Assembly: GCA_964398885.1 (NCBI GenBank)
Contig: CAYNOU010000002.1
Span: 22,762-86,761 of the forward strand
Source of the DNA: an uncultured Candidatus Cloacimonadota bacterium
GTDB taxonomy: Bacteria > Cloacimonadota > Cloacimonadia > JGIOTU-2
Reading direction: 5' to 3'
Length of the DNA stretch: 64,000 nt
In this document: in pieces, positions 9,592 to 63,704 of the stretch
Position numbering within the stretch: position 1 is the first letter of the stretch
Layout: each line of letters opens with the position of its first letter
Program-made: the position numbers and the translations under genes
Notes under the pieces: model-generated
Seen by the model: only the letters and a program-made list of their open reading frames with translations
Database searches by the model: none
What the model was told of the DNA's origin: nothing

Positions 9592-9593
9592 TT

Positions 9594-9621
9594 CCGCCAG
9601 AGGCGGATCCGCCTCTGGCGG
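9594..9621. repeat. Perfect 28-bp palindrome ccgccagaggcggatccgcctctggcgg (repeat family A).
   Basis: It is a perfect inverted repeat. It shares GCCAGAGGCRGATCCGCC with the elements at 4379 and 39638. Confidence 0.7.
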
Positions 9622-9729
9622 ACAACCACTAGAATCTAATTTACTTTTTATAATATTTAATCATATCTGTGTTTATCTGTCCACCCTCCGTAGCATTGCT
9701 ATTGCGGAAGACGGGTGTAAATCTGTGGC

Positions 9730-39727: not shown

Positions 39728-39785
39728 AATTTTCATACTCCTTTGTGTCCCGATTTATCGGGACATGTATGTTTCATATGAAAAT
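39728..39785. repeat. About 60-bp direct repeat, copy 2, containing the hairpin gtcccgatttatcgggac.
   Basis: aattttcatactcctttgtgtcccgatttatcgggacatgtatgtttcatatgaaaat. The hairpin also occurs at 59112-59129. Confidence 0.7.
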
Positions 39786-41249: not shown

Positions 41250-41280
41250 TTGCGTTCCCAAGCTGGGCTTGGGAACGAGA
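41250..41280. repeat. Palindromic repeat family D: TTGCGTTCCCAA-[hairpin]-TTGGGAACGAGA.
   Basis: ttgcgttcccaagctgggcttgggaacgaga. The same outer arms enclose a different inner hairpin at 63657-63704. Confidence 0.65.
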
Positions 41281-48565: not shown

Positions 48566-48592
48566 ACAAAAAATGCTCCGATTAATCGGAGC
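48566..48592 (-). terminator. Intrinsic terminator-like hairpin plus a U-run in the rimP-nusA leader, about 25 nt upstream of the rimP ATG. Putative attenuator.
   Basis: The minus strand reads gctccgattaatcggagc followed by attttttg. It lies between the divergent promoter region and the rimP start. Confidence 0.45.
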
Positions 48593-52267: not shown

Positions 52268-52300
52268 AACAAAAAAGCCCCGAGATAGTTCGGGGCTAAT
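52268..52300. terminator. Bidirectional intrinsic terminator between convergent genes.
   Basis: aaaaaagccccgagatagttcggggct. It is an 8-bp GC stem with an A-run on plus and a T-run on minus (agccccgaactatctcggggcttttttg). Confidence 0.65.
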
Positions 52301-53544: not shown

Positions 53545-54597
53545 TTATCTCATAATCACCATTTTCTTAACTTGAGAATTTTCTACACCACCGAGTTTAT
53601 AAAAATAAATTCCATTCTGAACTGGTATTCCATTATCATCCAGTCCATTCCAACCAACTGAACCAGAGTCGTTTTCTATCAGTAAGTTGCTGAATCCTTT
53701 AACCTTTTGTCCTTTAACATTATAAATTACAATATCTGCTTTTTGGGCCTGTTTTCTATTTAATCTATAGGAAATCACTGTAGTTGAATTAAATGGGTTT
53801 GGATAGTTTTGAATTAGTTTATATTCAGTTGAACTGATTGAGGTTTCATCAACATCTACAAAGGGTTGAGTAAGATATGAAAGATAAGAAGACATCAGAG
53901 TTGCTTTTGTATTGGGTCTGGCACCATCAATCATTGCTCCCAGAAGTGATGATGTAAAAATTGTATGATATTGACCTTCTCCGTCATAACAAACTCCACG
54001 ACCTTTTTCGTCCTGAGAAATGAAAAAGAGTGTACCTTTATCAGCCCCAATCTCATCAACTGAATAATCGGAGTCAGAACCATATTGATAATTAAACTCG
54101 TAGTCTTCTGCAAATGTTCCATCTACCCCAAACAAACTCTGAACATTATAAGCATAACCATCACCATCGTAATTACAACCGAAATAGCTAAAAAGGTCAG
54201 TAAAATAATGATCAGAAGCAAAGTCTACGCCCTCAACATAAACAGCTTTACCAGAATTCAAAAAATCAACAAGCCTTTGTTGCTCGACCGAGCCAATTAC
54301 TCCAGGAGGAGTAGAACCTCACCCCAAACACCAATGACCAAGTGTAACAAATATCAGGTCGTAATTTGATAGGTCTGAAGGTAAGTAAGAAAAAGTGGCA
54401 TAACTTTCACCATTAGTCATCAAAGCCTGTTGTAAAGCATATTGACAACCAACATATCCTGCTCCTTCTGGATCATTTATATAAGAACCATTATCGTTAT
54501 CCCAAATTAAAATTTCTAGTCCTATGACAATTTGAGGTATAATAAATAACATTATTACGAAACACAAAATTATTGAATATTGTTTAATAATTTTCAT
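53545..54597 (-). pseudogene. T9SS-sorted secreted protein interrupted by a single in-frame TGA (54319-54321). It is either a pseudogene or sequencing error, or a selenocysteine codon in a CLG-U context.
   Basis: The 92-aa ORF has a signal peptide and the 238-aa ORF has the T9SS C-terminal sorting domain. They are in the same frame and separated only by TGA: ...GHWCLG*GSTPPGVIG... It is adjacent to the sel operon. Confidence 0.5.
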
Positions 54598-54857: not shown

Positions 54858-57056
54858 TTATTTAACAAAAATTTTTCCAGTGCCTTTGGAAATTACTTTT
54901 CCAATTTTTGAAAATCCTTGAATTCCCTTTTTCTGAAATTTGTCTATTAATTCTATACATTCATCTTCTGGAATAGAAACTAACAAACCACCAGAAGTTT
55001 GTGCATCGGATAAAAGAACTTTCTGAACATAAGAAATGGAAGAACTCCATTCTACAATTGGCTCAACAAATTTCAAATTGGATAAAGTCCCTCCAGGAAT
55101 GACATTTCCAGCTGCAAATTCAACTGCGCCATTAAGGAGTTTTACCTTGTCAGCAAATACTTCAACATTCACATCACTCGCTTTAGTCATTTCAGATAAA
55201 TGCCCCAATAAACCAAAACCCGTCACATCTGTGCATCCATGAACTGTAAAATCATTTAATATTTGAGATGTGTAATTATTCAAAGTTTCCATTGTCTCAA
55301 CTAATTCTGTTTTTTGACTTTCAGAAAGTAATCCTCTTTTTAAAGCAGTTGATAATATTCCTGTTCCAATTGGTTTTGTAAGAAGAATTACATCACCAAG
55401 TAGCATACCTACATTTTTCCAAATTTTTTCTGGATGAACAAGACCAACTACAACCATACCATATTTCGGTTCTGTATCTTCAATAGAATGTCCACCAATA
55501 ACAGTTATTCCCGCCTCTTTAGCTTTCTCATTTGCACCTTGTAAAATCTTCTCTAACACACTCATAGGTAACCGATTCGTAGGAAATCCAACTATATTCA
55601 ATCCAAATAATGGTTTTGCACCCATTGCATAAATGTCACTTAAGGCATTTGCTGTAGCTATCATTCCAAAATCAAAAGGATTATCTACAATAGGAGTAAA
55701 GAAATCCACAGTAACAACAACCGCAGTATTATCATCAATTTTATAAACAGCAGCATCATCAGCAGTATTTGTACTTACTAAAATATTAGTATCAACTGGA
55801 ATCGGCAATTTTTGTAATATTGTTTCCAATATCTGTGGTTCAATCTTACAAGCACATCCCATTCCGTGAGTAAAATGAGTTAATTTGATTTCTTCTCTCA
55901 TATCAATTATAATATGATCTTTCTTTGCTTGAAATTTTTGCACAGTTTTAATAATAATTTCTGCTGCTTGCTCAATTTCTTCTTCAGTTGTAAATTTACC
56001 CGTAGAAAATCGAATAGTTCCCATTGAATAATCGATAGGCACATTCATAGCTTGCAAAACAGCCGAAACATCTATCCTGTCAGAATGGCACGCAGCACCA
56101 GCAGAAGCTGCAACTCCACTCATTTCAGAAAGAATAGTGTTCGCTTCGATTTTATAAAATCCTAAACTTAAAGTATTAGGCAAACCTTTTTCTGGATGCC
56201 CATTCAAACGAAAATCAAGATTTGATTCAGTGAGCTTTTCATGTAACAGGTCCCTCATCTTCTTCATATGTTTACAATTTTTATCCAGATCATTACCTGC
56301 AATTTCGCATGCTTTACCTAAGCCAACAATTTCCAATACATTTTCTGTCCCGGGACGCAAATTCTGCTCCTGATTTGCTCCATGTATTAGTTTCTGCAAT
56401 CTTGTTCCTCTTTTTATATAAAGAGCACCAACACCTTTGGGTGCATATAATTTATGACCTGCAATTGAAAGGAGATCTACTCCTAATTCTTTTACATCCA
56501 CTTTAATTTTGCCCATAGATTGAGCTGCATCTGTATGGAAGTAAACATTGTATTTTTTTGCAACTTTTGATATGTCTTCAATTGGCTGAATCGTTCCAAC
56601 CTCATTATTTGCATGCATAATTGTAATCAAAATAGTTTGAGGAGTAATAGCTTTTTCAACATCATCTGGGTTAACCAAACCATATTCATCTACAGGTAGA
56701 TATGAAATATTGAGTCCCTGTGATTCTAAATATTCACAAACTTCTATTACTGAAGGATGCTCAATTGAAGAGGTTATAATATGATTTCCCCTATCTTTAT
56801 GAGACAATGCAATCCCTTTGATTGCAAAATTATTGGATTCAGAACCACCACTTGTAAAGATAATCTCATCAGAATGAGCATTAATCATATTTGCAACTTG
56901 TTTGCGTGCATTTTCAACAGCTTTTTTTGTTTGAATTCCATACCAGTGCATACTTGAAGGATTACCAAAATGATTATCTAAAAAAGGTCTCATAGCTTGT
57001 GCTACTTCAGGTGCAATTGGAGTTGTTGCATTATAATCTAAATATATTGGTTTCAT
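54858..57056 (-). CDS. selD: Fusion protein: NifS-like cysteine desulfurase / selenocysteine lyase (N-terminal) fused to selenide, water dikinase SelD (C-terminal).
   Basis: N-terminal half: LDYNATTP...SSMHWYG...FTSGGSESNN, a class V aminotransferase. C-terminal half: THGMGCACKIEP (the SelD GCxCK motif, Cys-type), then a PurM-like fold. 732 aa. Confidence 0.8.
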   Translation of the reverse strand: MKPIYLDYNATTPIAPEVAQAMRPFLDNHFGNPSSMHWYGIQTKKAVENARKQVANMINAHSDEIIFTSGGSESNNFAIKGIALSHKDRGNHIITSSIEHPSVIEVCEYLESQGLNISYLPVDEYGLVNPDDVEKAITPQTILITIMHANNEVGTIQPIEDISKVAKKYNVYFHTDAAQSMGKIKVDVKELGVDLLSIAGHKLYAPKGVGALYIKRGTRLQKLIHGANQEQNLRPGTENVLEIVGLGKACEIAGNDLDKNCKHMKKMRDLLHEKLTESNLDFRLNGHPEKGLPNTLSLGFYKIEANTILSEMSGVAASAGAACHSDRIDVSAVLQAMNVPIDYSMGTIRFSTGKFTTEEEIEQAAEIIIKTVQKFQAKKDHIIIDMREEIKLTHFTHGMGCACKIEPQILETILQKLPIPVDTNILVSTNTADDAAVYKIDDNTAVVVTVDFFTPIVDNPFDFGMIATANALSDIYAMGAKPLFGLNIVGFPTNRLPMSVLEKILQGANEKAKEAGITVIGGHSIEDTEPKYGMVVVGLVHPEKIWKNVGMLLGDVILLTKPIGTGILSTALKRGLLSESQKTELVETMETLNNYTSQILNDFTVHGCTDVTGFGLLGHLSEMTKASDVNVEVFADKVKLLNGAVEFAAGNVIPGGTLSNLKFVEPIVEWSSSISYVQKVLLSDAQTSGGLLVSIPEDECIELIDKFQKKGIQGFSKIGKVISKGTGKIFVK

Positions 57057-57058
57057 AA

Positions 57059-59002
57059 CTATCTTCCAATTTCTTTATACCCTTTTTCAGTAATAACTCT
57101 ATAATCCCCTTTTCGGATGGTAATACCTTCGCTATCAAATTGGGTAAGCATCAAAAGACATATTTTACGATTCCCTTCAATCAAATCGCGGAACTCAGAA
57201 ATTTTTATACCCTGAGGATTATCATTAAGATATTTTAATAGTTTTTCTCTTGCGCCATTAATAACAGAGGAATGAATAAAATTCCCATCAATATTACACA
57301 ACTTCCCTTTATTTATTAGCAATCCAATAATTTGTTTTATCTTCTTATCATTATAACCTTTTTTCTCAGCAATGGAGCATAAATCAGATAAGAGTGGGGT
57401 TTTCATCCCTGAATTTTTAAAGTAATTTTCCACAAATGCTATTTGCTTCTCATCATCTTTAGATATATTTAATTTATGGGTTTTCAAAGCCCATGTATTT
57501 TGGATTTGTTTTATTTTTCCTTCATCTTCAAGCTTTTTCATAATAATTTGAATCCATTTGTCATTTGATGAATCGTTTTTCATTCCAAACAAACCGACTA
57601 ATTCCTTAAAAGTTTTTCCCGTTTCTAAAAACGGATTTTTTTTATGATATTCTTTCAGATTTTCAAGAATCCTTTTTTCAGTTCTGCTTTTCTCTTCTTT
57701 TTTAAAAAGAAATATATTCTTATCTGATGATAGAATAGAAATATCTTCAGGTATAGACTTAAAAATTATCTCTCTAATTTTTTCTTCTGGTAAATTCAGT
57801 TTTTTTGCAATATATTCATAATTTAACGGATACAAACTTTTTCTAACTTCTGTAGCAATTAATTCAGATATATCACCAGAAGCAATTTTATAGAGCTTGT
57901 TAATTACATTTTCATTTCTTCTACGATGATGAAGTGGATGTGCATCAAGCACAATTCCCCCACCAAGAGTTAATTCGGACGAGGTATTTCGTAGAACAAA
58001 TTTATCACCGTAAAAAGCAATACAAGGAGAATCAAGATGTATCTGAACAATACCACTTTGTCTCGGTTTCAAAATTTCTTTATCAATAAGATGTATTTTT
58101 GCTTGTGCCTGCAATGTACCCAAAAGAAATATTGCTTGTGACCATCTGCCAAAACTGCTATTGTGATTAAACAAAGTAATTTTTGCATCAATCATATCTG
58201 TTGTCTGTAAAGGCATATTAGAGATAAGCATTCCTCTTGAAAAATTTTCTTTATTCAATCCTATCAGATTCAAAGAAGCTCTATCTCCAGCAGTTATTTC
58301 CTCAACCTGGGTTCCATGACGCTCCATTCTACGAATTCTCAACTTTTTTGCATTAGGCAGAAGATAAACTTTTTCATTATCTCTTAACTTACCACTAATA
58401 ACAGAGCCGTTTACAACGGTTCCAAAGCCTTTTACTGTAAATATCCTATCAATATACATTCTAAAAACATCACCAGTTGGTCGTTGTGGAATTTCTTCAC
58501 TAATTTTTACTAAAAGCTGCTTTAATTCCTCAATACCATATCCTGTTTTTGATGAAACTTTTATAATTGGAAATTCTTCAAGAAAAGTTCCTTTTATAAA
58601 ATCAGCAACTTCTTGTTCTACAATTTTGAGAAGCTCTTCATCTACAAGGTCAATCTTTGTTAAAGCTACAAATCCTTTTTTTATCCCAAGAATCTTCATA
58701 ACATTAAGATGCTCAACTGTTTGTGGCATAATTCCACTATCTGCAGCAATAACGAGCATAACAAAATCAATTCCGCTTGCTCCTGCAACCATAGTATTCA
58801 CAAAATCTTTATGACCAGGAACATCTATTATTCCAATACTCTGTCCATTTGGTAGCTCAATATGTGCGAAACCAAGATTAATGGTTATTCCTCTAATCTT
58901 TTCTTCTTTGTGAGTATCACATTCAATATTTGTTAAAGCTTTTATTAAAGCAGTTTTCCCATGGTCAATATGGCCTGCTGTTCCCATTATTAAATGTTTC
59001 AT
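57059..59002 (-). CDS. selB: Selenocysteine-specific translation elongation factor SelB.
   Basis: N-terminal G-domain MGTAGHIDHGKTALIKALT...DVPGHKDF...TKIDL. 647 aa with a C-terminal winged-helix extension. It lies between selA and selD. Confidence 0.85.
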   Translation of the reverse strand: MKHLIMGTAGHIDHGKTALIKALTNIECDTHKEEKIRGITINLGFAHIELPNGQSIGIIDVPGHKDFVNTMVAGASGIDFVMLVIAADSGIMPQTVEHLNVMKILGIKKGFVALTKIDLVDEELLKIVEQEVADFIKGTFLEEFPIIKVSSKTGYGIEELKQLLVKISEEIPQRPTGDVFRMYIDRIFTVKGFGTVVNGSVISGKLRDNEKVYLLPNAKKLRIRRMERHGTQVEEITAGDRASLNLIGLNKENFSRGMLISNMPLQTTDMIDAKITLFNHNSSFGRWSQAIFLLGTLQAQAKIHLIDKEILKPRQSGIVQIHLDSPCIAFYGDKFVLRNTSSELTLGGGIVLDAHPLHHRRRNENVINKLYKIASGDISELIATEVRKSLYPLNYEYIAKKLNLPEEKIREIIFKSIPEDISILSSDKNIFLFKKEEKSRTEKRILENLKEYHKKNPFLETGKTFKELVGLFGMKNDSSNDKWIQIIMKKLEDEGKIKQIQNTWALKTHKLNISKDDEKQIAFVENYFKNSGMKTPLLSDLCSIAEKKGYNDKKIKQIIGLLINKGKLCNIDGNFIHSSVINGAREKLLKYLNDNPQGIKISEFRDLIEGNRKICLLMLTQFDSEGITIRKGDYRVITEKGYKEIGR

Positions 59003-59188
59003 AATTTTTTACCGCGAATGTACGCTAATTTAAGCGAATATTTTTTCTTTGCCACGAATTTACCCCATGAAATCCTTCAAAGAAGGAATCCCAACACACC
59101 CGTTCTCCGTAGTCCCGATAAATCGGGACGAAGGATGAATCGGGATTATTTCACAGGGCAAGCACGAACTGGCACGAACATTTATGTA

Positions 59189-60577
59189 TCAATGTAAAAG
59201 GCATTTTTGTATTTCTTGTGATACATAATCTATATCTTCTTCATTAATTGTTAAAACATCAAAATGGATATTTCCTTCTCTGAGAATTCCAAGTATTGGC
59301 CTTTCTAAATGCAACAATTGTTTAAACAACTTTTCTGCAAAATTTTTCGTATTATCCTTGTTAATCAGCATTACTGAATAGCTATCTAATTTTAGACGAG
59401 GAAGGGTTCCTCCGCCACAATGTGCAATACTCTCTACTATTTCAGATTGTATATGAAATTTTGCTAACTCATTTTGTAATTTTTTTGCAATATTATAAAG
59501 CTCGGATTTACTTTTTTTTAGCATCCTATAAACAGGTATTTTTGTAAAAACATCTTCATCTTTAATATAATATCGCAACACTGTGGATAAAGCGGCAATA
59601 GTCATTTTACCCACTCGGAGTGCTCGCATAAGTGGAGCTTTTGAAAGTTTAGATATTAATTCCTTTTTACCTGCGATTATCCCTGCTTGAGGACCACCAA
59701 GTATTTTATCACAACTAAAAGTAACTAAATCTGTTCCGTAGTTTAGACTGGAAACAGCATCAGGTTCATTCCCAAAATGTAAATCTTTTTGTTTTCTTAT
59801 AAGTCCGGAGCCCAAATCATACATTAAAATCAGATTATATTTTCTTGCAAGCTTTGATAATTCTTTTAGTTCTACCTCTTCTGTAAAGCCTTCTATATAG
59901 TAATTTGATTTATGAACTTTTAAAATGATTCTTGTATCACCAGTAATTGCATTTTCATAATCTGATATTCTGGTTCTGTTTGTTGTGCCAACTTCAACCA
60001 TTTTTGCACCGCTTGCCTTCATTATATCAGGAATCCTGAAAGAACCACCAATTTCTATCAATTCTCCACGAGATATAATTGCTTCTTTATTTTCAGCAAA
60101 AGTTTTTAAACAGAGCAGGACTCCAGCGGCATTATTATTAACCACAACTGCATCTTCTGCTTTTGTAACAAATTTAATTAATTCTGAAATGTGTTTATTT
60201 CTCTGCCCTCTTTTACCTTTATCTAAATCAAATTCTAAATTAGAATATCCAAGTATGATTGGTTCTAATTCTTTTAGAACATCTTTACCAAGTGGAGCTC
60301 TTCCAAGATTTGTATGAAGTATAATTCCAGTTGCATTGACCATTGGTTTAAGTGATTTTTTGGTTATAGATTGGATAATAACTTTAATATCCTCAATAAT
60401 TTGGTTTAAGTTTTTTGCAGGCTTTGCTTTTAAAACATTTTTTCTATACTCATCCAAAATTTGTCTAATTGAATATGTAATCAAATCATTTCCAAATTTG
60501 TTTTTCAATTTCATTATTTCAGGATGATTTAATAATTTATCCACGCCGGGAATCTTTTTAAGTTCTTCTTTACACAT
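59189..60577 (-). CDS. selA: L-seryl-tRNA(Sec) selenium transferase (selenocysteine synthase).
   Basis: MCKEELKKIPGVDKLL...NATGIILHTNLGRAPL...NNNAAGVLL...RGELIEIGGSFRIPDIM...VGTTNRT are SelA hallmarks. The start is placed at ATG 60575-60577, because the track GTG lies inside a repeat. Confidence 0.85.
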   Translation of the reverse strand: MCKEELKKIPGVDKLLNHPEIMKLKNKFGNDLITYSIRQILDEYRKNVLKAKPAKNLNQIIEDIKVIIQSITKKSLKPMVNATGIILHTNLGRAPLGKDVLKELEPIILGYSNLEFDLDKGKRGQRNKHISELIKFVTKAEDAVVVNNNAAGVLLCLKTFAENKEAIISRGELIEIGGSFRIPDIMKASGAKMVEVGTTNRTRISDYENAITGDTRIILKVHKSNYYIEGFTEEVELKELSKLARKYNLILMYDLGSGLIRKQKDLHFGNEPDAVSSLNYGTDLVTFSCDKILGGPQAGIIAGKKELISKLSKAPLMRALRVGKMTIAALSTVLRYYIKDEDVFTKIPVYRMLKKSKSELYNIAKKLQNELAKFHIQSEIVESIAHCGGGTLPRLKLDSYSVMLINKDNTKNFAEKLFKQLLHLERPILGILREGNIHFDVLTINEEDIDYVSQEIQKCLLH

Positions 60578-60587
60578 AGTTAATCCT

Positions 60588-60648
60588 AAAAAATTTGCCA
60601 CAGATTTAGACCAATCAAAAAAATGATTACCTTTATTTCTGTGGCAAA
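60588..60648 (-). terminator. Hairpin (11-bp stem TTTGCCACAGA/TCTGTGGCAAA, about 32-nt loop) plus a U6 run between tRNA-Sec and the selA RBS. Terminator-like or a processing element.
   Basis: The minus strand reads tttgccacagaaataaaggtaatcatttttttgattggtctaaatctgtggcaaatttttt aggattaact ATG. It uses the family-B TTGCCACAGA motif as an inverted repeat. Confidence 0.4.
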
Positions 60649-60662
60649 CAATAAAATTATAA

Positions 60663-60757
60663 AGCCGAGAGGGCAGGAATCGAACCTGCCACAGACGGTT
60701 TTATCCGCCCACTACTGATTTTGAAGACCAGTTGGAACACCAGTTCCATCCTCTCAA
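60663..60757 (-). tRNA. selC: tRNA-Sec (selC), anticodon UCA.
   Basis: Minus-strand fold: 8-bp acceptor (TTGAGAGG/CCTCTCGG), 6-bp D-stem TGGAAC/GTTCCA with the 4-nt loop TGGT, 6-bp anticodon stem with loop CTTCAAA (UCA at 34-36), a long variable arm, and a 5-bp T-stem GCAGG/CCTGC with loop TTCGATT. About 94-95 nt. CCA is not encoded. Confidence 0.75.
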
Positions 60758-60795: not shown

Positions 60796-62730
60796 TTATC
60801 GCATTATCACCATTTTTCTTACCTGAGATTTTTCAGAATTAGAAATTTTATAGAAATATACACCATTGCTAACTGCATTTCCATTTGTATCTGTTCCATC
60901 CCAGACAATCTCACCATAATTTCCTTCAAAAGGAAGGTTATTAAATTCTTTTACAATATCACCTTTAATATTATAAATAATGATTTTTGATTTTCTACTC
61001 GGCTTTATGTTATAAGAAATATTTGTCTCGGAGTTAAATGGATTTGGAAAATTCTGCAGCAAGCCTGAATTGTTATTTATCGCAGAATCAACACTATGTG
61101 GTTGATCAAAATATAAAGCACCCATATCTGCAACAGTTCCATCAGGGTCTGGTGGAGAAGCTGGATCTCCTGCGTCAATACACGGAGAACCTTCTAATAA
61201 ACTCCAGGATGCTTCAAGACCATTGTAACTCGTTCCACTTCCTGCTGTTGGATTCTCAAACATTGGGTCTTCATTGATATTTCCAGTTCCACTATAACCA
61301 CCTGATATACAAGTATAGGTTACATAAACAGTACTACCAAATAGATTGAATACATCTAAGTCGTCAATTAGGATACAATTGTTAACTGTTGCAGAAGAAG
61401 ATGCAAACCACATTGCTCCATAACCATAGGTAGATTCATTATTTGCTATTGTGTTGTTAATCATAGTCGGGTTTGATGAGTTTTTTAAACTAATTGCACC
61501 AGCGAAACCTGCAGTATTATTAACGATTATATTATGAGAAATCAGAGGATTTGCATTATCACAAACAATTCCTGCACAAAGAATTGAACTTGTATTATTG
61601 GCTATTAGGTTTTTATAAATATACACACTATCTAAACCAATTACATTAATTGCTGCGCCTTTCTGGGTTGTAGTTAAATTCTCATAAATAGTGTTTTCAA
61701 TAATATCAACTTTTGAATTTTCAATATCTACTGCACAATAAGTGGCATTAGTTATTTCACAATTCTGAATAAGATTGTCTTCCATAGTATTAAAGAATTG
61801 AATACCTTTCCAACTATCATTTGATGTGAAAATTATAGGACCTTTTCCAGAAGCATCAGCAACTATTTTTCCTTCAACTTTTATCTTGCTATTATTATTT
61901 GTAATTATTTGAACATCAGGTTCAATAGTAAGTTCACAGCCATCTGGAATTGATACATCATCAGTGATAGTATAAGGGCTAAAAGCTGTATTCCAGACAC
62001 CAGCAACAGTTCCCGAAATATTATTACTATTAGTAACAGTGATGTAGTCCTCTTGAGTAATACTTGCACTATCAGCACCACTCCAAACAGTTAGAGATAC
62101 ATCATAAGATCCAACATCAGTATAAAGGAAAAATGGATTTTCTTCGTTACTGTCAATTAAGCCATCACCATCAAGATCCCAAGCCCATGTATCTGCACTA
62201 CCCGCTGTACTATGGAATTGAACTCCTAATGAAGGAGGTCCTGTTTGTATACTTGCATCAAATCCTGCCATTAATCCTAAAGATGCAATCGCATCATCTA
62301 AATATGTTGAGAAATTTACATTATTCTCACCATAATATAGTTGATATTCACCACCAATAACTGCAAAGAATGGTACATAGCCATTACCATAATCCCAATA
62401 TAAAGAGCTAATATCAGAAGAATGATAAAATGTACAATTATAAGGTGGAATACTCCAATCATTTTCAGATAGGAAGTAAACATGTCCACCGGGGTTATAT
62501 GTTTGCCACATAGCTTCTAATTGCGGCGCCGCCGCAACACAGCCACCTCAACTATAACCTCCCCAGAAAAAGACTACCGCTTTTTCTGCGTTGATCAATT
62601 CATATATTGAATGCGGTGCTCCAGTATTATCAGTCCAACTAAAATCATCTACAACATCGCCTACTTGGTATACTGCAAACAATGAACTTGCAAATACCAA
62701 AAATGCGAAAAGGGTAATTGCTTTTTTCAT
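60796..62730 (-). CDS. Candidate selenoprotein. Order of domains: signal peptide, thioredoxin/TlpA-like redoxin domain with a U-x-x-C motif (Sec at the in-frame TGA 62548-62550), PKD-like domain, beta-helix repeats, T9SS C-terminal sorting domain.
   Basis: The signal-peptide ORF and the 571-aa ORF are in the same frame and separated only by TGA: ...EKAVVFFWGGYS-U-GGCVAAAPQLEAMWQTY..., a redoxin pattern with FW..xCxxC. A SECIS-like hairpin starts 10 nt downstream. sel genes lie immediately downstream. The C-terminus FPNPFNSE...KMVIMR is a T9SS sorting domain. Confidence 0.6.
62521..62537 (-). promoter_or_regulatory. Putative bacterial SECIS element: GC-rich hairpin 10 nt 3' of the in-frame UGA.
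   Basis: Plus strand ttgcggcgccgccgcaa (8-bp inverted repeat). The mRNA reads UGA GGUGGCUGUG UUGCGGCGGCGCCGCAA. It is a conspicuous 100% GC core in a roughly 30% GC genome. Confidence 0.45.
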
Positions 62731-63656: not shown

Positions 63657-63704
63657 TTGCGTTCCCAATCCCCAATTCAATTGGGGAGGGCTTTGGGAAC
63701 GAGA
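63657..63704. repeat. Palindromic repeat family D with a nested inner hairpin (tccccaattcaattgggga).
   Basis: ttgcgttcccaatccccaattcaattggggagggctttgggaacgaga. The outer arms are identical to 41250-41280. The inner hairpin recurs at 39844-39862. Confidence 0.65.

What the first reader, a model, noticed from the sequence alone, without database searches (positions are those of the whole stretch)
62521..62550. GC-only hairpin exactly 10 nt downstream of the in-frame UGA (SECIS-like)
The mRNA reads UGA-GGUGGCUGUG-UUGCGGCGGCGCCGCAA. The last segment is an 8-bp perfect inverted repeat (ttgcggcgccgccgcaa on plus). It would give a 6-7 bp G/C stem with a 3-5 nt loop. Bacterial SECIS elements are stem-loops that begin about 11 nt 3' of the Sec UGA. 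A 17-nt, 88% GC palindrome in a roughly 30% GC coding region is very unlikely by chance. It also forces the codons AAAP on the protein, and Ala and Pro are GC-rich codons.
Basis: seen in the sequence. Interest (0 to 1): 0.6.

Follow-up and report, generated by a model that had tools for sequence, protein, structure and literature searches.

The report
Selenocysteine-insertion hairpin in a redoxin gene
The GC-rich hairpin is almost certainly the RNA signal (a bacterial SECIS) that makes the ribosome read the UGA just upstream as selenocysteine in a secreted thiol-disulfide oxidoreductase; it is a well-supported but ordinary example of a known mechanism.

Summary
The in-frame UGA is at 62548-62550, followed by a 10-nt spacer and the 17-nt palindrome at 62521-62537. 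The palindrome folds into 7 Watson-Crick pairs plus a flanking G.U pair, capped by a GGC triloop.

The interpretation as a bacterial SECIS is supported:
- All 26 UGA-bearing homologues keep a hairpin with a GGC loop at the same distance. They are mostly Cloacimonadota and share 31-73% aa identity with the query.
- Compensatory changes occur in the stem (L027, L030).
- The four synonymous sites inside the element are G in 79 of 80 cases. GCG and CCG are only 6-8% of Ala and Pro codons here.
- Cys-bearing homologues lack the hairpin or show it decaying.
- The hairpin meets all four criteria of the published bacterial SECIS consensus.
- tRNA-Sec, selA, selB and a nifS-selD fusion lie immediately downstream.

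The host gene (60796-62730, minus strand) encodes a signal peptide, a ResA-like UxxC domain, PKD and beta-helix domains and a type IX secretion (T9SS) sorting tail. Public gene calls split it at the UGA.

It is a new member of a known kind. It lacks the E. coli-specific bulged U and loop U. SelB binding and Sec insertion remain untested. Interest is modest.

The parts
62548..62550 (-). In-frame UGA read as selenocysteine. It is the first position of a UxxC redox motif (FFWGGYS-U-GGC).
   Evidence: Searches show frame continuity. UGA is conserved in 26 homologues, and Cys occupies the same column in L005-L007, L028, L029 and L031-L036. It aligns with the first Cys of ResA's CxxC.
62538..62547 (-). 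10-nt spacer GGUGGCUGUG (codons Gly-Gly-Cys plus the first base of Val) between the UGA and the palindrome.
   Evidence: The length is invariant in all homologues.
62520..62538 (-). Upper stem-loop of the SECIS: G.U plus 7 Watson-Crick pairs around the triloop. The palindrome proper is 62521-62537.
   Evidence: Pair statistics: 81.6% paired vs 73.0% in shuffles, 0 of 500 shuffles as high, and 6 of 8 pairs with changes on both sides.
62528..62530 (-). Apical loop GGC. Its first G is the wobble base of an Ala codon. With its closing pair it reads C-GGC-G.
   Evidence: GGC is invariant in all 26 UGA forms, including L030 at 31% aa identity. It is AGC in the Cys form L006/L007.
62510..62515 (-). 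3' half of a possible lower helix that would pair with 62541-62546. Support is weak.
   Evidence: It is part of the minimum-free-energy fold of the window sequence. Across homologues only 74% of positions are paired and covariation is slight.
60796..62730 (-). Selenoprotein gene (644 residues, of which one is Sec). It encodes a signal peptide, a ResA/redoxin-like UxxC domain, PKD and parallel beta-helix domains, and a T9SS C-terminal sorting domain.
   Evidence: Orthologues are 554-655 aa with the same tail. Public gene calls split it into 60-aa and 571-aa ORFs.
60664..60757 (-). tRNA-Sec (anticodon UCA), 38 nt downstream of the selenoprotein gene.
   Evidence: ARAGORN. Rfam RF01852 at 58.3 bits, above the gathering score of 47. 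The same arrangement is seen in L002.
59189..60601 (-). SelA (selenocysteine synthase).
   Evidence: Pfam PF03841, E = 3.4e-134.
57059..59002 (-). SelB, the Sec-specific elongation factor that binds SECIS hairpins. It includes the C-terminal winged-helix region.
   Evidence: TIGR00475 at 362 bits, cutoff 242. PF09107 SelB-wing_3. Full-length match to E. coli SelB 5lzb_z, residues 5-637.
54858..57056 (-). NifS-like cysteine desulfurase fused to SelD (selenophosphate synthetase).
   Evidence: TIGR00476 at 375 bits, cutoff 125.

Best explanation
The hairpin is the upper stem-loop of a bacterial SECIS element, embedded in the coding sequence of a selenoprotein mRNA.

Proposed mechanism:
1. The ribosome brings the UGA (62548-62550) into the A site. 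The first ~10 nt downstream then sit in the mRNA channel.
2. The hairpin that starts right after them (62538..62520) stands at the channel entrance.
3. Its apical GGC loop on a G/C-rich stem is bound by the C-terminal winged-helix domain of the SelB encoded 3.5 kb downstream.
4. This tethers the SelB-GTP-Sec-tRNA(Sec) complex, so that it outcompetes RF2. Selenocysteine is inserted as the attacking residue of a UxxC redox motif.

Shown here:
- the structure and its fixed spacing;
- its conservation and covariation;
- selection on synonymous sites;
- the Sec/Cys pairing with homologues;
- the presence of the complete Sec machinery.

Inferred from established knowledge of E. coli and Moorella SelB-SECIS:
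- physical binding by SelB;
- actual Sec insertion.
For: 1. In-frame UGA with coding conservation on both sides in 26 homologues. Cys sits at the same column in 11 others.

2. Hairpin conservation:
- CGGC-GGC-GCCG is present once, at the same offset, in 23 of 41 fetched loci and never elsewhere in them.
- The two divergent Sec forms keep the structure through double changes. L027 has GAG...CCU, which turns C-G into A-U. L030 has a stem GUUCGGA/UCCGAAU with the loop still GGC.
- 81.6% of positions are paired, against 28-58% in the slid controls. No shuffle of 500 reached the observed value.

3. Selection at the RNA level:
- The third positions of codons +5 to +8 are G in 79 of 80 cases. The sole exception is the compensating CCU of L027.
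- Codon +5 is GCG, UCG, ACG or GAG whatever the amino acid.
- GCG is 5.8% of Ala codons, CCG 8.0% of Pro and UCG 2.7% of Ser in this window. Neighbouring synonymous sites vary and prefer A/U.
- In the synonymous-recoding null, only 0.06% of recodings are as stable.

4. Natural loss-of-function control. The Cys paralogue L006 lies on the same contig as the Sec form L011. It reads AUG GCA GCG CCG, so the loop G has become A and the stem is reduced.

5. The consensus criteria (PMC13188914) are all met:
- loop of 3 nt, within 3-9;
- stem of 7-8 bp, within 4-16;
- G in loop positions 1 and 2, matching the N1-G-[G|U]-N-N2 pattern as C-GGC-G;
- 17 nt from the UGA to the loop, within 16-37;
- MFE of -11.5 kcal/mol, at or below -7.5.

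6. tRNA-Sec, SelA, full-length SelB and SelD are directly downstream.

7. G.U pairs in the outer stem (9 cells) fit an RNA on the sense strand. They do not fit a DNA palindrome.
Against: - There is no experimental evidence for SelB binding or Sec insertion.
- The dinucleotide-shuffle z-score of the 71-nt region is +0.48.
- RNAalifold on the alignment prefers an alternative hairpin (columns 8-12 with 19-23, GCUGU/GCGGC). It competes with the SECIS stem and is within ~2 kcal/mol in about half of the homologues. It shows no covariation, is broken in L003 and L030, and would lie inside the ribosome when the UGA is in the A site.
- The four core pairs are almost invariant, so most covariation evidence rests on two divergent sequences and on the outer pairs. 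Of those outer pairs, 26-58% of cells are unpaired.
- In 4 of 19 homologues the isolated hairpin is weaker than -7.5 kcal/mol (-4.5 to -5.0).
- The E. coli-type bulged U and loop U are absent.
- No Rfam family matches.
Confidence: 0.9

Rival explanations
1. The hairpin is a by-product of a protein-level requirement for the peptide A-A-A-P after the redox motif. It has no RNA function.
For: The Pro aligns with the conserved Pro of ResA's CxxC-x-x-E-x-P. A-A-P is also kept in the Cys form L006/L007. Ala and Pro codons are intrinsically G/C-rich at positions 1-2.
Against: Amino-acid constraint cannot explain G at 79 of 80 synonymous third positions in a genome where GCG and CCG are 6-8% of their codon families. 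It also cannot explain the compensating synonymous CCG-to-CCU change in L027. Only 0.06% of synonymous recodings reach the native stability. The synonymous GCG-to-GCA change appears only in the Cys form.
Confidence: 0.03
2. The functional RNA structure is the alternative hairpin GCUGU(N6)GCGGC predicted by RNAalifold, or a switch between the two folds, rather than the palindrome.
For: It is the RNAalifold consensus. Its energies are comparable to or better than the SECIS fold in about half of the homologues.
Against: It shows no compensatory change. It has two G.U pairs and is broken in L003 (A.G) and L030 (G.A). Its 5' arm consists of the protein-constrained Gly-Cys codons. Its loop would start only 9 nt after the UGA, outside the 16-37 nt range, and inside the mRNA channel during decoding. 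It does not explain the conserved G at columns 24 and 27.
Confidence: 0.03
3. The element acts at the DNA level. The palindrome (it contains GGCGCC) would be a protein-binding, restriction/modification or recombination site.
For: It is a perfect 8+1+8 DNA palindrome. Other GC-rich palindromes exist in the window.
Against: It is tied to UGA-bearing alleles and sits at a fixed reading-frame offset. The outer stem is kept partly by G.U pairs, which are C/A mismatches on the other strand. L030 keeps the RNA fold but not the DNA sequence. The element is unique in the window.
Confidence: 0.02
4. The UGA is a true stop codon. A 60-aa peptide ends there and the hairpin serves termination, attenuation or re-initiation at the AUG 36 nt downstream (62511).
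For: Public gene callers annotate exactly this: a 60-aa ORF plus a 571-aa ORF. An in-frame AUG follows at 62511.
Against: No U-tract follows and the scan finds no terminator. The thioredoxin-fold domain and its CxxC motif span the UGA. Cys homologues are continuous. The downstream ORF alone would lack the signal peptide that a T9SS cargo needs (inference). The frame is conserved across the UGA in 26 homologues.
Confidence: 0.02

Closest known systems
Bacterial SECIS consensus model (bSECISearch; Zhang and Gladyshev, as summarised in PMC13188914)
   Same: A coding-region stem-loop just 3' of the Sec UGA. It has a small apical loop with G followed by G in its first positions, a 4-16 bp upper stem and 16-37 nt of spacing (17 nt here), with MFE at or below -7.5 kcal/mol. 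All four criteria were tested and met.
   Different: It is a very compact version with a nearly sequence-invariant core (CGGC-GGC-GCCG). Each of the four wobble bases of four consecutive codons has a structural role. In several homologues the stem is only 4-5 bp.
E. coli fdhF SECIS (a minimal 17-nt upper stem-loop 11 nt from the UGA; U17, G23 and U24 essential; PMC8659212)
   Same: A 17-nt element starts 10-11 nt after the UGA. The loop GG lies at positions 21-22 counted from the U of UGA. In fdhF the loop GG is at 22-23; that sequence is recalled from memory. The hairpin is presumably bound by the SelB C-terminal domain. A weak lower helix may include the region next to the UGA.
   Different: There is no bulged U in the 5' arm. 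The loop is a GGC triloop rather than GGUC and contains no U. The stem is perfect.
Moorella thermoacetica fdhA SECIS bound to SelB winged-helix domains 3/4 (crystal structures; from memory, not checked here)
   Same: A G/C-rich hairpin with a G-containing apical loop, recognised by SelB WH4. The window's SelB carries the matching SelB-wing_3 domain.
   Different: The loop sequence and size differ. No structural or binding data exist for this lineage.
Prx-like thiol:disulfide oxidoreductase and Redoxin-family selenoproteins with UxxC (PF00578 / PF08534; listed in PMC13188914)
   Same: Thioredoxin-fold domain with Sec at the first position of the CxxC-type motif. Nearest solved relative by profile is ResA, at E = 7.9e-10. 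Cys homologues exist.
   Different: The domain is here the N-terminal module of a ~640-aa protein that also has PKD, beta-helix and T9SS sorting domains. Pfam scores fall below the gathering cutoffs (23.0 vs 26). No NCBIfam selenoprotein model hits it.

Membership tests
Bacterial SECIS (consensus model, PMC13188914 Fig. 2A) | [quoted passage not shown] | tested here: met
   UGA at 62548-62550. The ORF continues for 583 codons. The hairpin starts 10 nt after the UGA.
Bacterial SECIS (consensus model, PMC13188914 Fig. 2A) | Apical loop of 3-9 nt on an upper stem of 4-16 bp. | tested here: met
   The loop is 3 nt. The stem is 7 Watson-Crick pairs plus 1 G.U pair in the window. Homologues have 4-8 bp.
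Bacterial SECIS (consensus model, PMC13188914 Fig. 2A) | At least one G in the first two loop positions, following the pattern N1-G-[G|U]-N-N2. | tested here: met
   The loop is GGC in all 26 UGA forms. The closing pair is C-G, or A-U in L030.
Bacterial SECIS (consensus model, PMC13188914 Fig. 2A) | 16-37 nt between the UGA and the apical loop. | tested here: met
   17 nt, invariant across the homologues.
Bacterial SECIS (consensus model, PMC13188914 Fig. 2A) | MFE at or below -7.5 kcal/mol. | tested here: met
   -11.5 kcal/mol for the local 25 nt and -19.9 for 48 nt in the window. 4 of 19 homologues have isolated hairpins of -4.5 to -5.0 kcal/mol and reach -8 to -10 only with flanking pairs.
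Bacterial SECIS (functional definition) | Bound by SelB and required for Sec insertion at the UGA. | not testable with these tools
   Only indirect evidence exists. A full-length SelB with the winged-helix domain is encoded nearby. The hairpin co-occurs with UGA and decays in the Cys form.
E. coli fdhF-type SECIS | A ~17-nt upper stem-loop placed 11 nt from the UGA. | tested here: met
   The 17-nt palindrome follows a 10-nt spacer, or 9 nt if the G.U pair is counted. The criterion is from PMC8659212.
E. coli fdhF-type SECIS | Bulged U (U17) in the 5' arm. | tested here: not met
   The stem is perfect in the window. Only L004 and L020 fold with bulges, and these are not equivalent.
E. coli fdhF-type SECIS | G23-U24 in the apical loop. 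| tested here: not met
   The loop is GGC. G is present but no U, in any homologue.
Rfam RNA families | A match to a curated covariance model. | tested here: not met
   Only tRNA-Sec reaches gathering score in the window. The local E-value scan gives only chance hits. No curated Rfam model matched, so this does not argue against a bacterial SECIS.
Selenoprotein gene (Sec/Cys-pair criterion) | Homologues carry Cys where this gene has UGA, with conservation on both sides. | tested here: met
   Eleven loci (L005-L007, L028, L029, L031-L036) have Cys at that column. 26 have UGA.
Selenoprotein gene | The Sec machinery is present in the genome. | tested here: met
   tRNA-Sec, SelA, SelB and SelD all lie within 8 kb on the same strand.
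Prx-like / ResA-like thiol:disulfide oxidoreductase (UxxC selenoproteins) | Thioredoxin-fold homology with Sec on the first Cys of CxxC. | tested here: met
   The profile of six homologues hits ResA 4nmu_A at E = 7.9e-10, with U and C aligned to the C and C of CKPC. The Cys homologue P0003 carries PF08534 and PF00578.
Pfam AhpC-TSA / Redoxin | A score above the gathering threshold. | tested here: not met
   23.0 bits against 26, and 18.8 against 26.6, for the window protein with U replaced by C.

The most novel reading that the evidence does not exclude
The hairpin would mark an undescribed family of type IX-secreted, probably cell-surface, selenoproteins in Cloacimonadota.

- The family combines a ResA-like UxxC domain with PKD, beta-helix and T9SS tail modules, and has several paralogues per genome.
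- Its gene heads the Sec-machinery cluster (tRNA-Sec, selA, selB, nifS-selD). A second, unrelated T9SS-sorted CxxU selenoprotein lies at the other end of the cluster (53545-54597).
- Its minimal, sequence-invariant CGGC-GGC-GCCG hairpin would then define a lineage-specific SelB recognition mode: a GGC triloop with no U and no bulge.

No paper in the held library links T9SS cargo with selenocysteine. That is absence in one library, not proof of novelty.
Probability: 0.3. Interest if true: 0.5.

Novelty: new member of a known kind. Interest (0 to 1): 0.3.

Why it matters
- It rescues a mis-annotated gene. Public calls split the gene at the UGA into 60-aa and 571-aa ORFs. A second gene nearby is split the same way.
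- It adds a secreted, multi-domain redoxin to the selenoproteome of an uncultured phylum.
- It is an unusually clean natural example of an RNA signal written into four consecutive wobble positions, with a Cys paralogue as a built-in control.
- If the T9SS tail is functional, selenocysteine chemistry would be displayed outside the cell. That would be of interest for extracellular redox and selenium ecology.
- It does not change the understanding of Sec decoding.

Tried and rejected
- Rfam at gathering thresholds and at permissive E-values gave nothing but tRNA-Sec.
- The plain MFE z-score against dinucleotide shuffles was uninformative. I replaced it with a synonymous-recoding null.
- RNAalifold returned a competing hairpin rather than the palindrome. 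I tested it and set it aside: it shows no covariation, is broken in two sequences and has the wrong spacing.
- The lower helix resembling the E. coli extended SECIS was counted and found only weakly supported.
- The terminator scan found no terminator at the hairpin.
- Exact look-ups of SelA and SelB to identify the source record failed. The 571-aa ORF was found in JGI Ga0315541_1001824.
- For the second candidate selenoprotein I looked for a shared SECIS to derive a lineage consensus. No single hairpin was conserved across its homologues.
- NCBIfam has no selenoprotein model matching the N-terminal domain.
- I did not run structure prediction. The profile match to ResA already places Sec on the catalytic Cys.
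Full report
**1. What is in the sequence**

The feature lies on the minus strand. The mRNA reads ...UUU UUC UGG GGA GGU UAU AGU UGA GGU GGC UGU GUU GCG GCG GCG CCG CAA UUA GAA GCU AUG....

- The UGA is at 62548-62550.
- Ten nucleotides follow (62538-62547).
- Then comes the 17-nt palindrome UUGCGGCGGCGCCGCAA (62521-62537). Its arms are 8 nt each, 100% complementary, around one central base.

As RNA it folds into 7 Watson-Crick pairs (5 G-C and 2 U-A) plus an outer G.U pair, with a GGC triloop. The local 25 nt fold at -11.5 kcal/mol. Two small corrections apply: the stem is not purely G/C, and the loop is 3 nt (or 5 nt if the closing C-G pair opens).

**2. Is it more than chance?**

The window is 31.8% GC and the gene 34.4% GC.

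- Perfect hairpins of at least 7 bp with at least 5 G-C pairs occur at 8 loci. Shuffled sequence gives 0.17.
- By position, six of the eight sit in intergenic gaps. This one is inside an ORF.
- CGGCGGCGCCG is unique in the window.
- GCG is 5.8% of Ala codons and CCG 8.0% of Pro codons in the window's genes. P(GCG GCG GCG CCG | AAAP) is therefore 1.6e-5.
- When the 16 codons after the UGA were recoded synonymously 5000 times with the window's codon usage, only 0.06% gave a local hairpin as stable. The mean was -4.3 and the sd 2.0 kcal/mol.
- The standard dinucleotide-shuffle z-score for the 71-nt stretch is +0.48, which is not significant. Shuffled G/C runs still self-pair, so that null is not useful here.

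**3. The gene and its neighbourhood**

Read through the UGA, 60796-62730 (minus strand) encodes 644 residues. The modules are:

- a signal-peptide-like N-terminus;
- a thioredoxin-fold domain carrying FFWGGYS-U-GGC;
- a PKD domain;
- parallel beta-helix repeats;
- a type IX secretion C-terminal sorting domain.

A profile of six homologues matches the thiol-disulfide oxidoreductase ResA (4nmu_A) at E = 7.9e-10. The UGA column falls on the first Cys of CKPC. The Pro of 'AAAP' falls on the Pro of ResA's E-x-P. Pfam AhpC-TSA and Redoxin score just below their cutoffs.

Immediately downstream on the same strand lie:

- tRNA-Sec at 60664-60757;
- SelA at 59189-60601;
- SelB at 57059-59002. It scores 362 bits on TIGR00475, has the SelB-wing_3 domain, and matches ribosome-bound E. 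coli SelB over its full length;
- a NifS-like/SelD fusion at 54858-57056.

The machinery that would read a SECIS is thus encoded next to it. In L002 the tRNA-Sec again directly follows the orthologous gene.

**4. Comparative evidence**

One genome scan and one metagenome scan gave 36 related loci. The closest named relatives are Cloacimonadota metagenome-assembled genomes (MAGs).

- 26 loci (21 distinct sequences; 31-73% aa identity) have UGA at the same column. 11 have Cys there. This is the classical Sec/Cys-pair signature.
- Every UGA form has a hairpin whose GGC loop starts 18 nt after the UGA, with no indel in between.
- The core CGGC-GGC-GCCG is identical in 23 loci. In each it occurs once only, at that position.

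The two divergent Sec forms are the informative ones:

- L027 reads GAG GCG GCG CCU. The C-G pair has become A-U through a non-synonymous change on the 5' side and a synonymous change on the 3' side.
- L030 (31% identity) has a different stem, GUUCGGA/UCCGAAU. That gives two compensated pairs, and the GGC loop and its position are kept.

For the 8-pair helix across 19 distinct sequences:

- 81.6% of cells are paired, against 73.0% in column shuffles and 28-58% with slid partners.
- 6 of 8 pairs show changes on both sides.
- 0 of 500 shuffles reach the observed values.

The core four pairs are almost invariant. The outer pairs are kept in only 42-74% of sequences. The conserved unit is therefore a 4-6 bp G/C clamp with a GGC loop, and the window carries an unusually long version.

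**5. Synonymous sites**

Codons +5 to +8 after the UGA are [GCG/UCG/ACG/GAG] GCG GCG CC[G/U].

- Their third positions are G in 79 of 80 cases. The single exception is L027's compensating U.
- Each wobble G has a role. Three of them pair with the C17, C20 and C26 columns. The fourth is the first loop G.
- Flanking synonymous sites vary and favour A/U.
- The close Cys paralogue L006/L007 is 66-73% identical, and L006 is on the same contig as the Sec form L011. It reads AUG GCA GCG CCG. The loop G is lost by a synonymous change and the stem shrinks to 3 G-C pairs plus a G.U pair.
- This single natural control fits relaxation of the RNA constraint once UGA became UGC.
- It also shows that 'AAP' has some protein-level conservation.

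**6. Fit to known SECIS elements**

The published bacterial consensus (PMC13188914) sets four criteria. The window meets all of them.

| Criterion | Required | Observed |
|---|---|---|
| Apical loop | 3-9 nt | 3 nt |
| Upper stem | 4-16 bp | 7-8 bp |
| UGA-to-loop spacing | 16-37 nt | 17 nt |
| MFE | at or below -7.5 kcal/mol | -11.5 kcal/mol |

The E. coli fdhF element is a 17-nt stem-loop 11 nt from the UGA, with U17, G23 and U24 essential (PMC8659212). Size and placement agree here. The bulged U and the loop U are absent. This is therefore a member of the general bacterial class, not of the E. coli subtype. Rfam returned no match to the element.

**7. Alternatives considered**

- RNAalifold proposed a competing hairpin, GCUGU...GCGGC, with energies close to the SECIS fold in half of the homologues. 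It shows no covariation and is broken in L003 and L030. It would place a loop 9 nt from the UGA. It would also be unwound in the mRNA channel when the UGA is decoded; that last point is an inference from ribosome footprint knowledge.
- A possible lower helix (62541-62546 with 62510-62515) is only weakly supported.
- A terminator or re-initiation reading is contradicted by the absence of a U-tract. The domain also spans the UGA, and the downstream ORF alone lacks a signal peptide.
- A DNA-level role is contradicted by the G.U pairs and by L030.

**8. Verdict**

Binding by SelB and actual Sec insertion are inferred, not shown. It is a new member of a known kind. The host protein falls within the known class of Prx-like/redoxin UxxC selenoproteins (PMC13188914).

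Its T9SS-cargo architecture and its position at the head of the Sec-machinery cluster were not found described in the held library.

Noticed in passing
window 53545-54597 (minus strand); UGA at 54319-54321: A second likely selenoprotein gene sits just downstream of the nifS-selD fusion. It has a signal peptide, the motif GHWCLG-U-GSTPPG (CxxU) and a T9SS sorting tail. The UGA and the reading frame are conserved in L038-L041, and gene callers split it into ~92-aa and 238-aa ORFs. No single downstream hairpin is conserved. The window and L038 have GCUC-GGUC-GAGC with the loop at +30. L040 has GGAGCC-GUU-GGCUCU with the loop at +22. No Cys homologue was found.
   Followed up: partly
L042 3782-5716 (JGI Ga0315541_1001824), equivalent to window 60796-62730: The public annotation splits the selenoprotein gene at the UGA into a 60-aa ORF and a 571-aa ORF. 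The same contig carries a 200-aa AhpC-TSA/Redoxin/Thioredoxin gene and a DUF6029 gene further upstream, beyond the window's end.
   Followed up: partly
window 62564-62572 / 62580-62588 (minus-strand mRNA): A perfect 9-bp A/U-rich hairpin (CAGAAAAAG / CUUUUUCUG, 7-nt loop) ends 13 nt upstream of the UGA. It recurs in many homologues, including the Cys form L006. It is probably a by-product of the conserved E/G-K...F-F-W codons rather than part of the recoding signal.
   Followed up: partly
window 41253-41277 and 63660-63701: Two intergenic hairpins share the same arms, CGTTCCCAA...TTGGGAACG, with different loops. None is expected by chance. They may be a recurring terminator or a small repeat element.
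   Followed up: partly
window 9593-9622, 39746-39765, 48575-48592, 52276-52297, 59112-59129: GC-rich perfect hairpins (7-13 bp) lie in gaps between ORFs in this 32% GC sequence. They look like terminators. The one at 59112-59129 lies between selA and selB.
   Followed up: no
window 54858-57056 (minus strand): SelD is fused to an N-terminal NifS/IscS-like cysteine desulfurase (a possible selenocysteine lyase). The same 732-aa fusion precedes the second selenoprotein gene in L037 and L038.
   Followed up: no
L006 and L011 (same contig, Ga0265595_1000497); L008 and L014 (same contig, Ga0222696_1000045): The family is paralogous within genomes. One contig carries a Cys form and a Sec form about 20 kb apart. 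Another carries two Sec forms about 13 kb apart.
   Followed up: no
L001 3001-3700: The orthologue in the Ca. Celaenobacter antarcticus MAG ends after 232 codons, against ~640 in the other orthologues. This may be a frameshift, an assembly error or a pseudogene.
   Followed up: no
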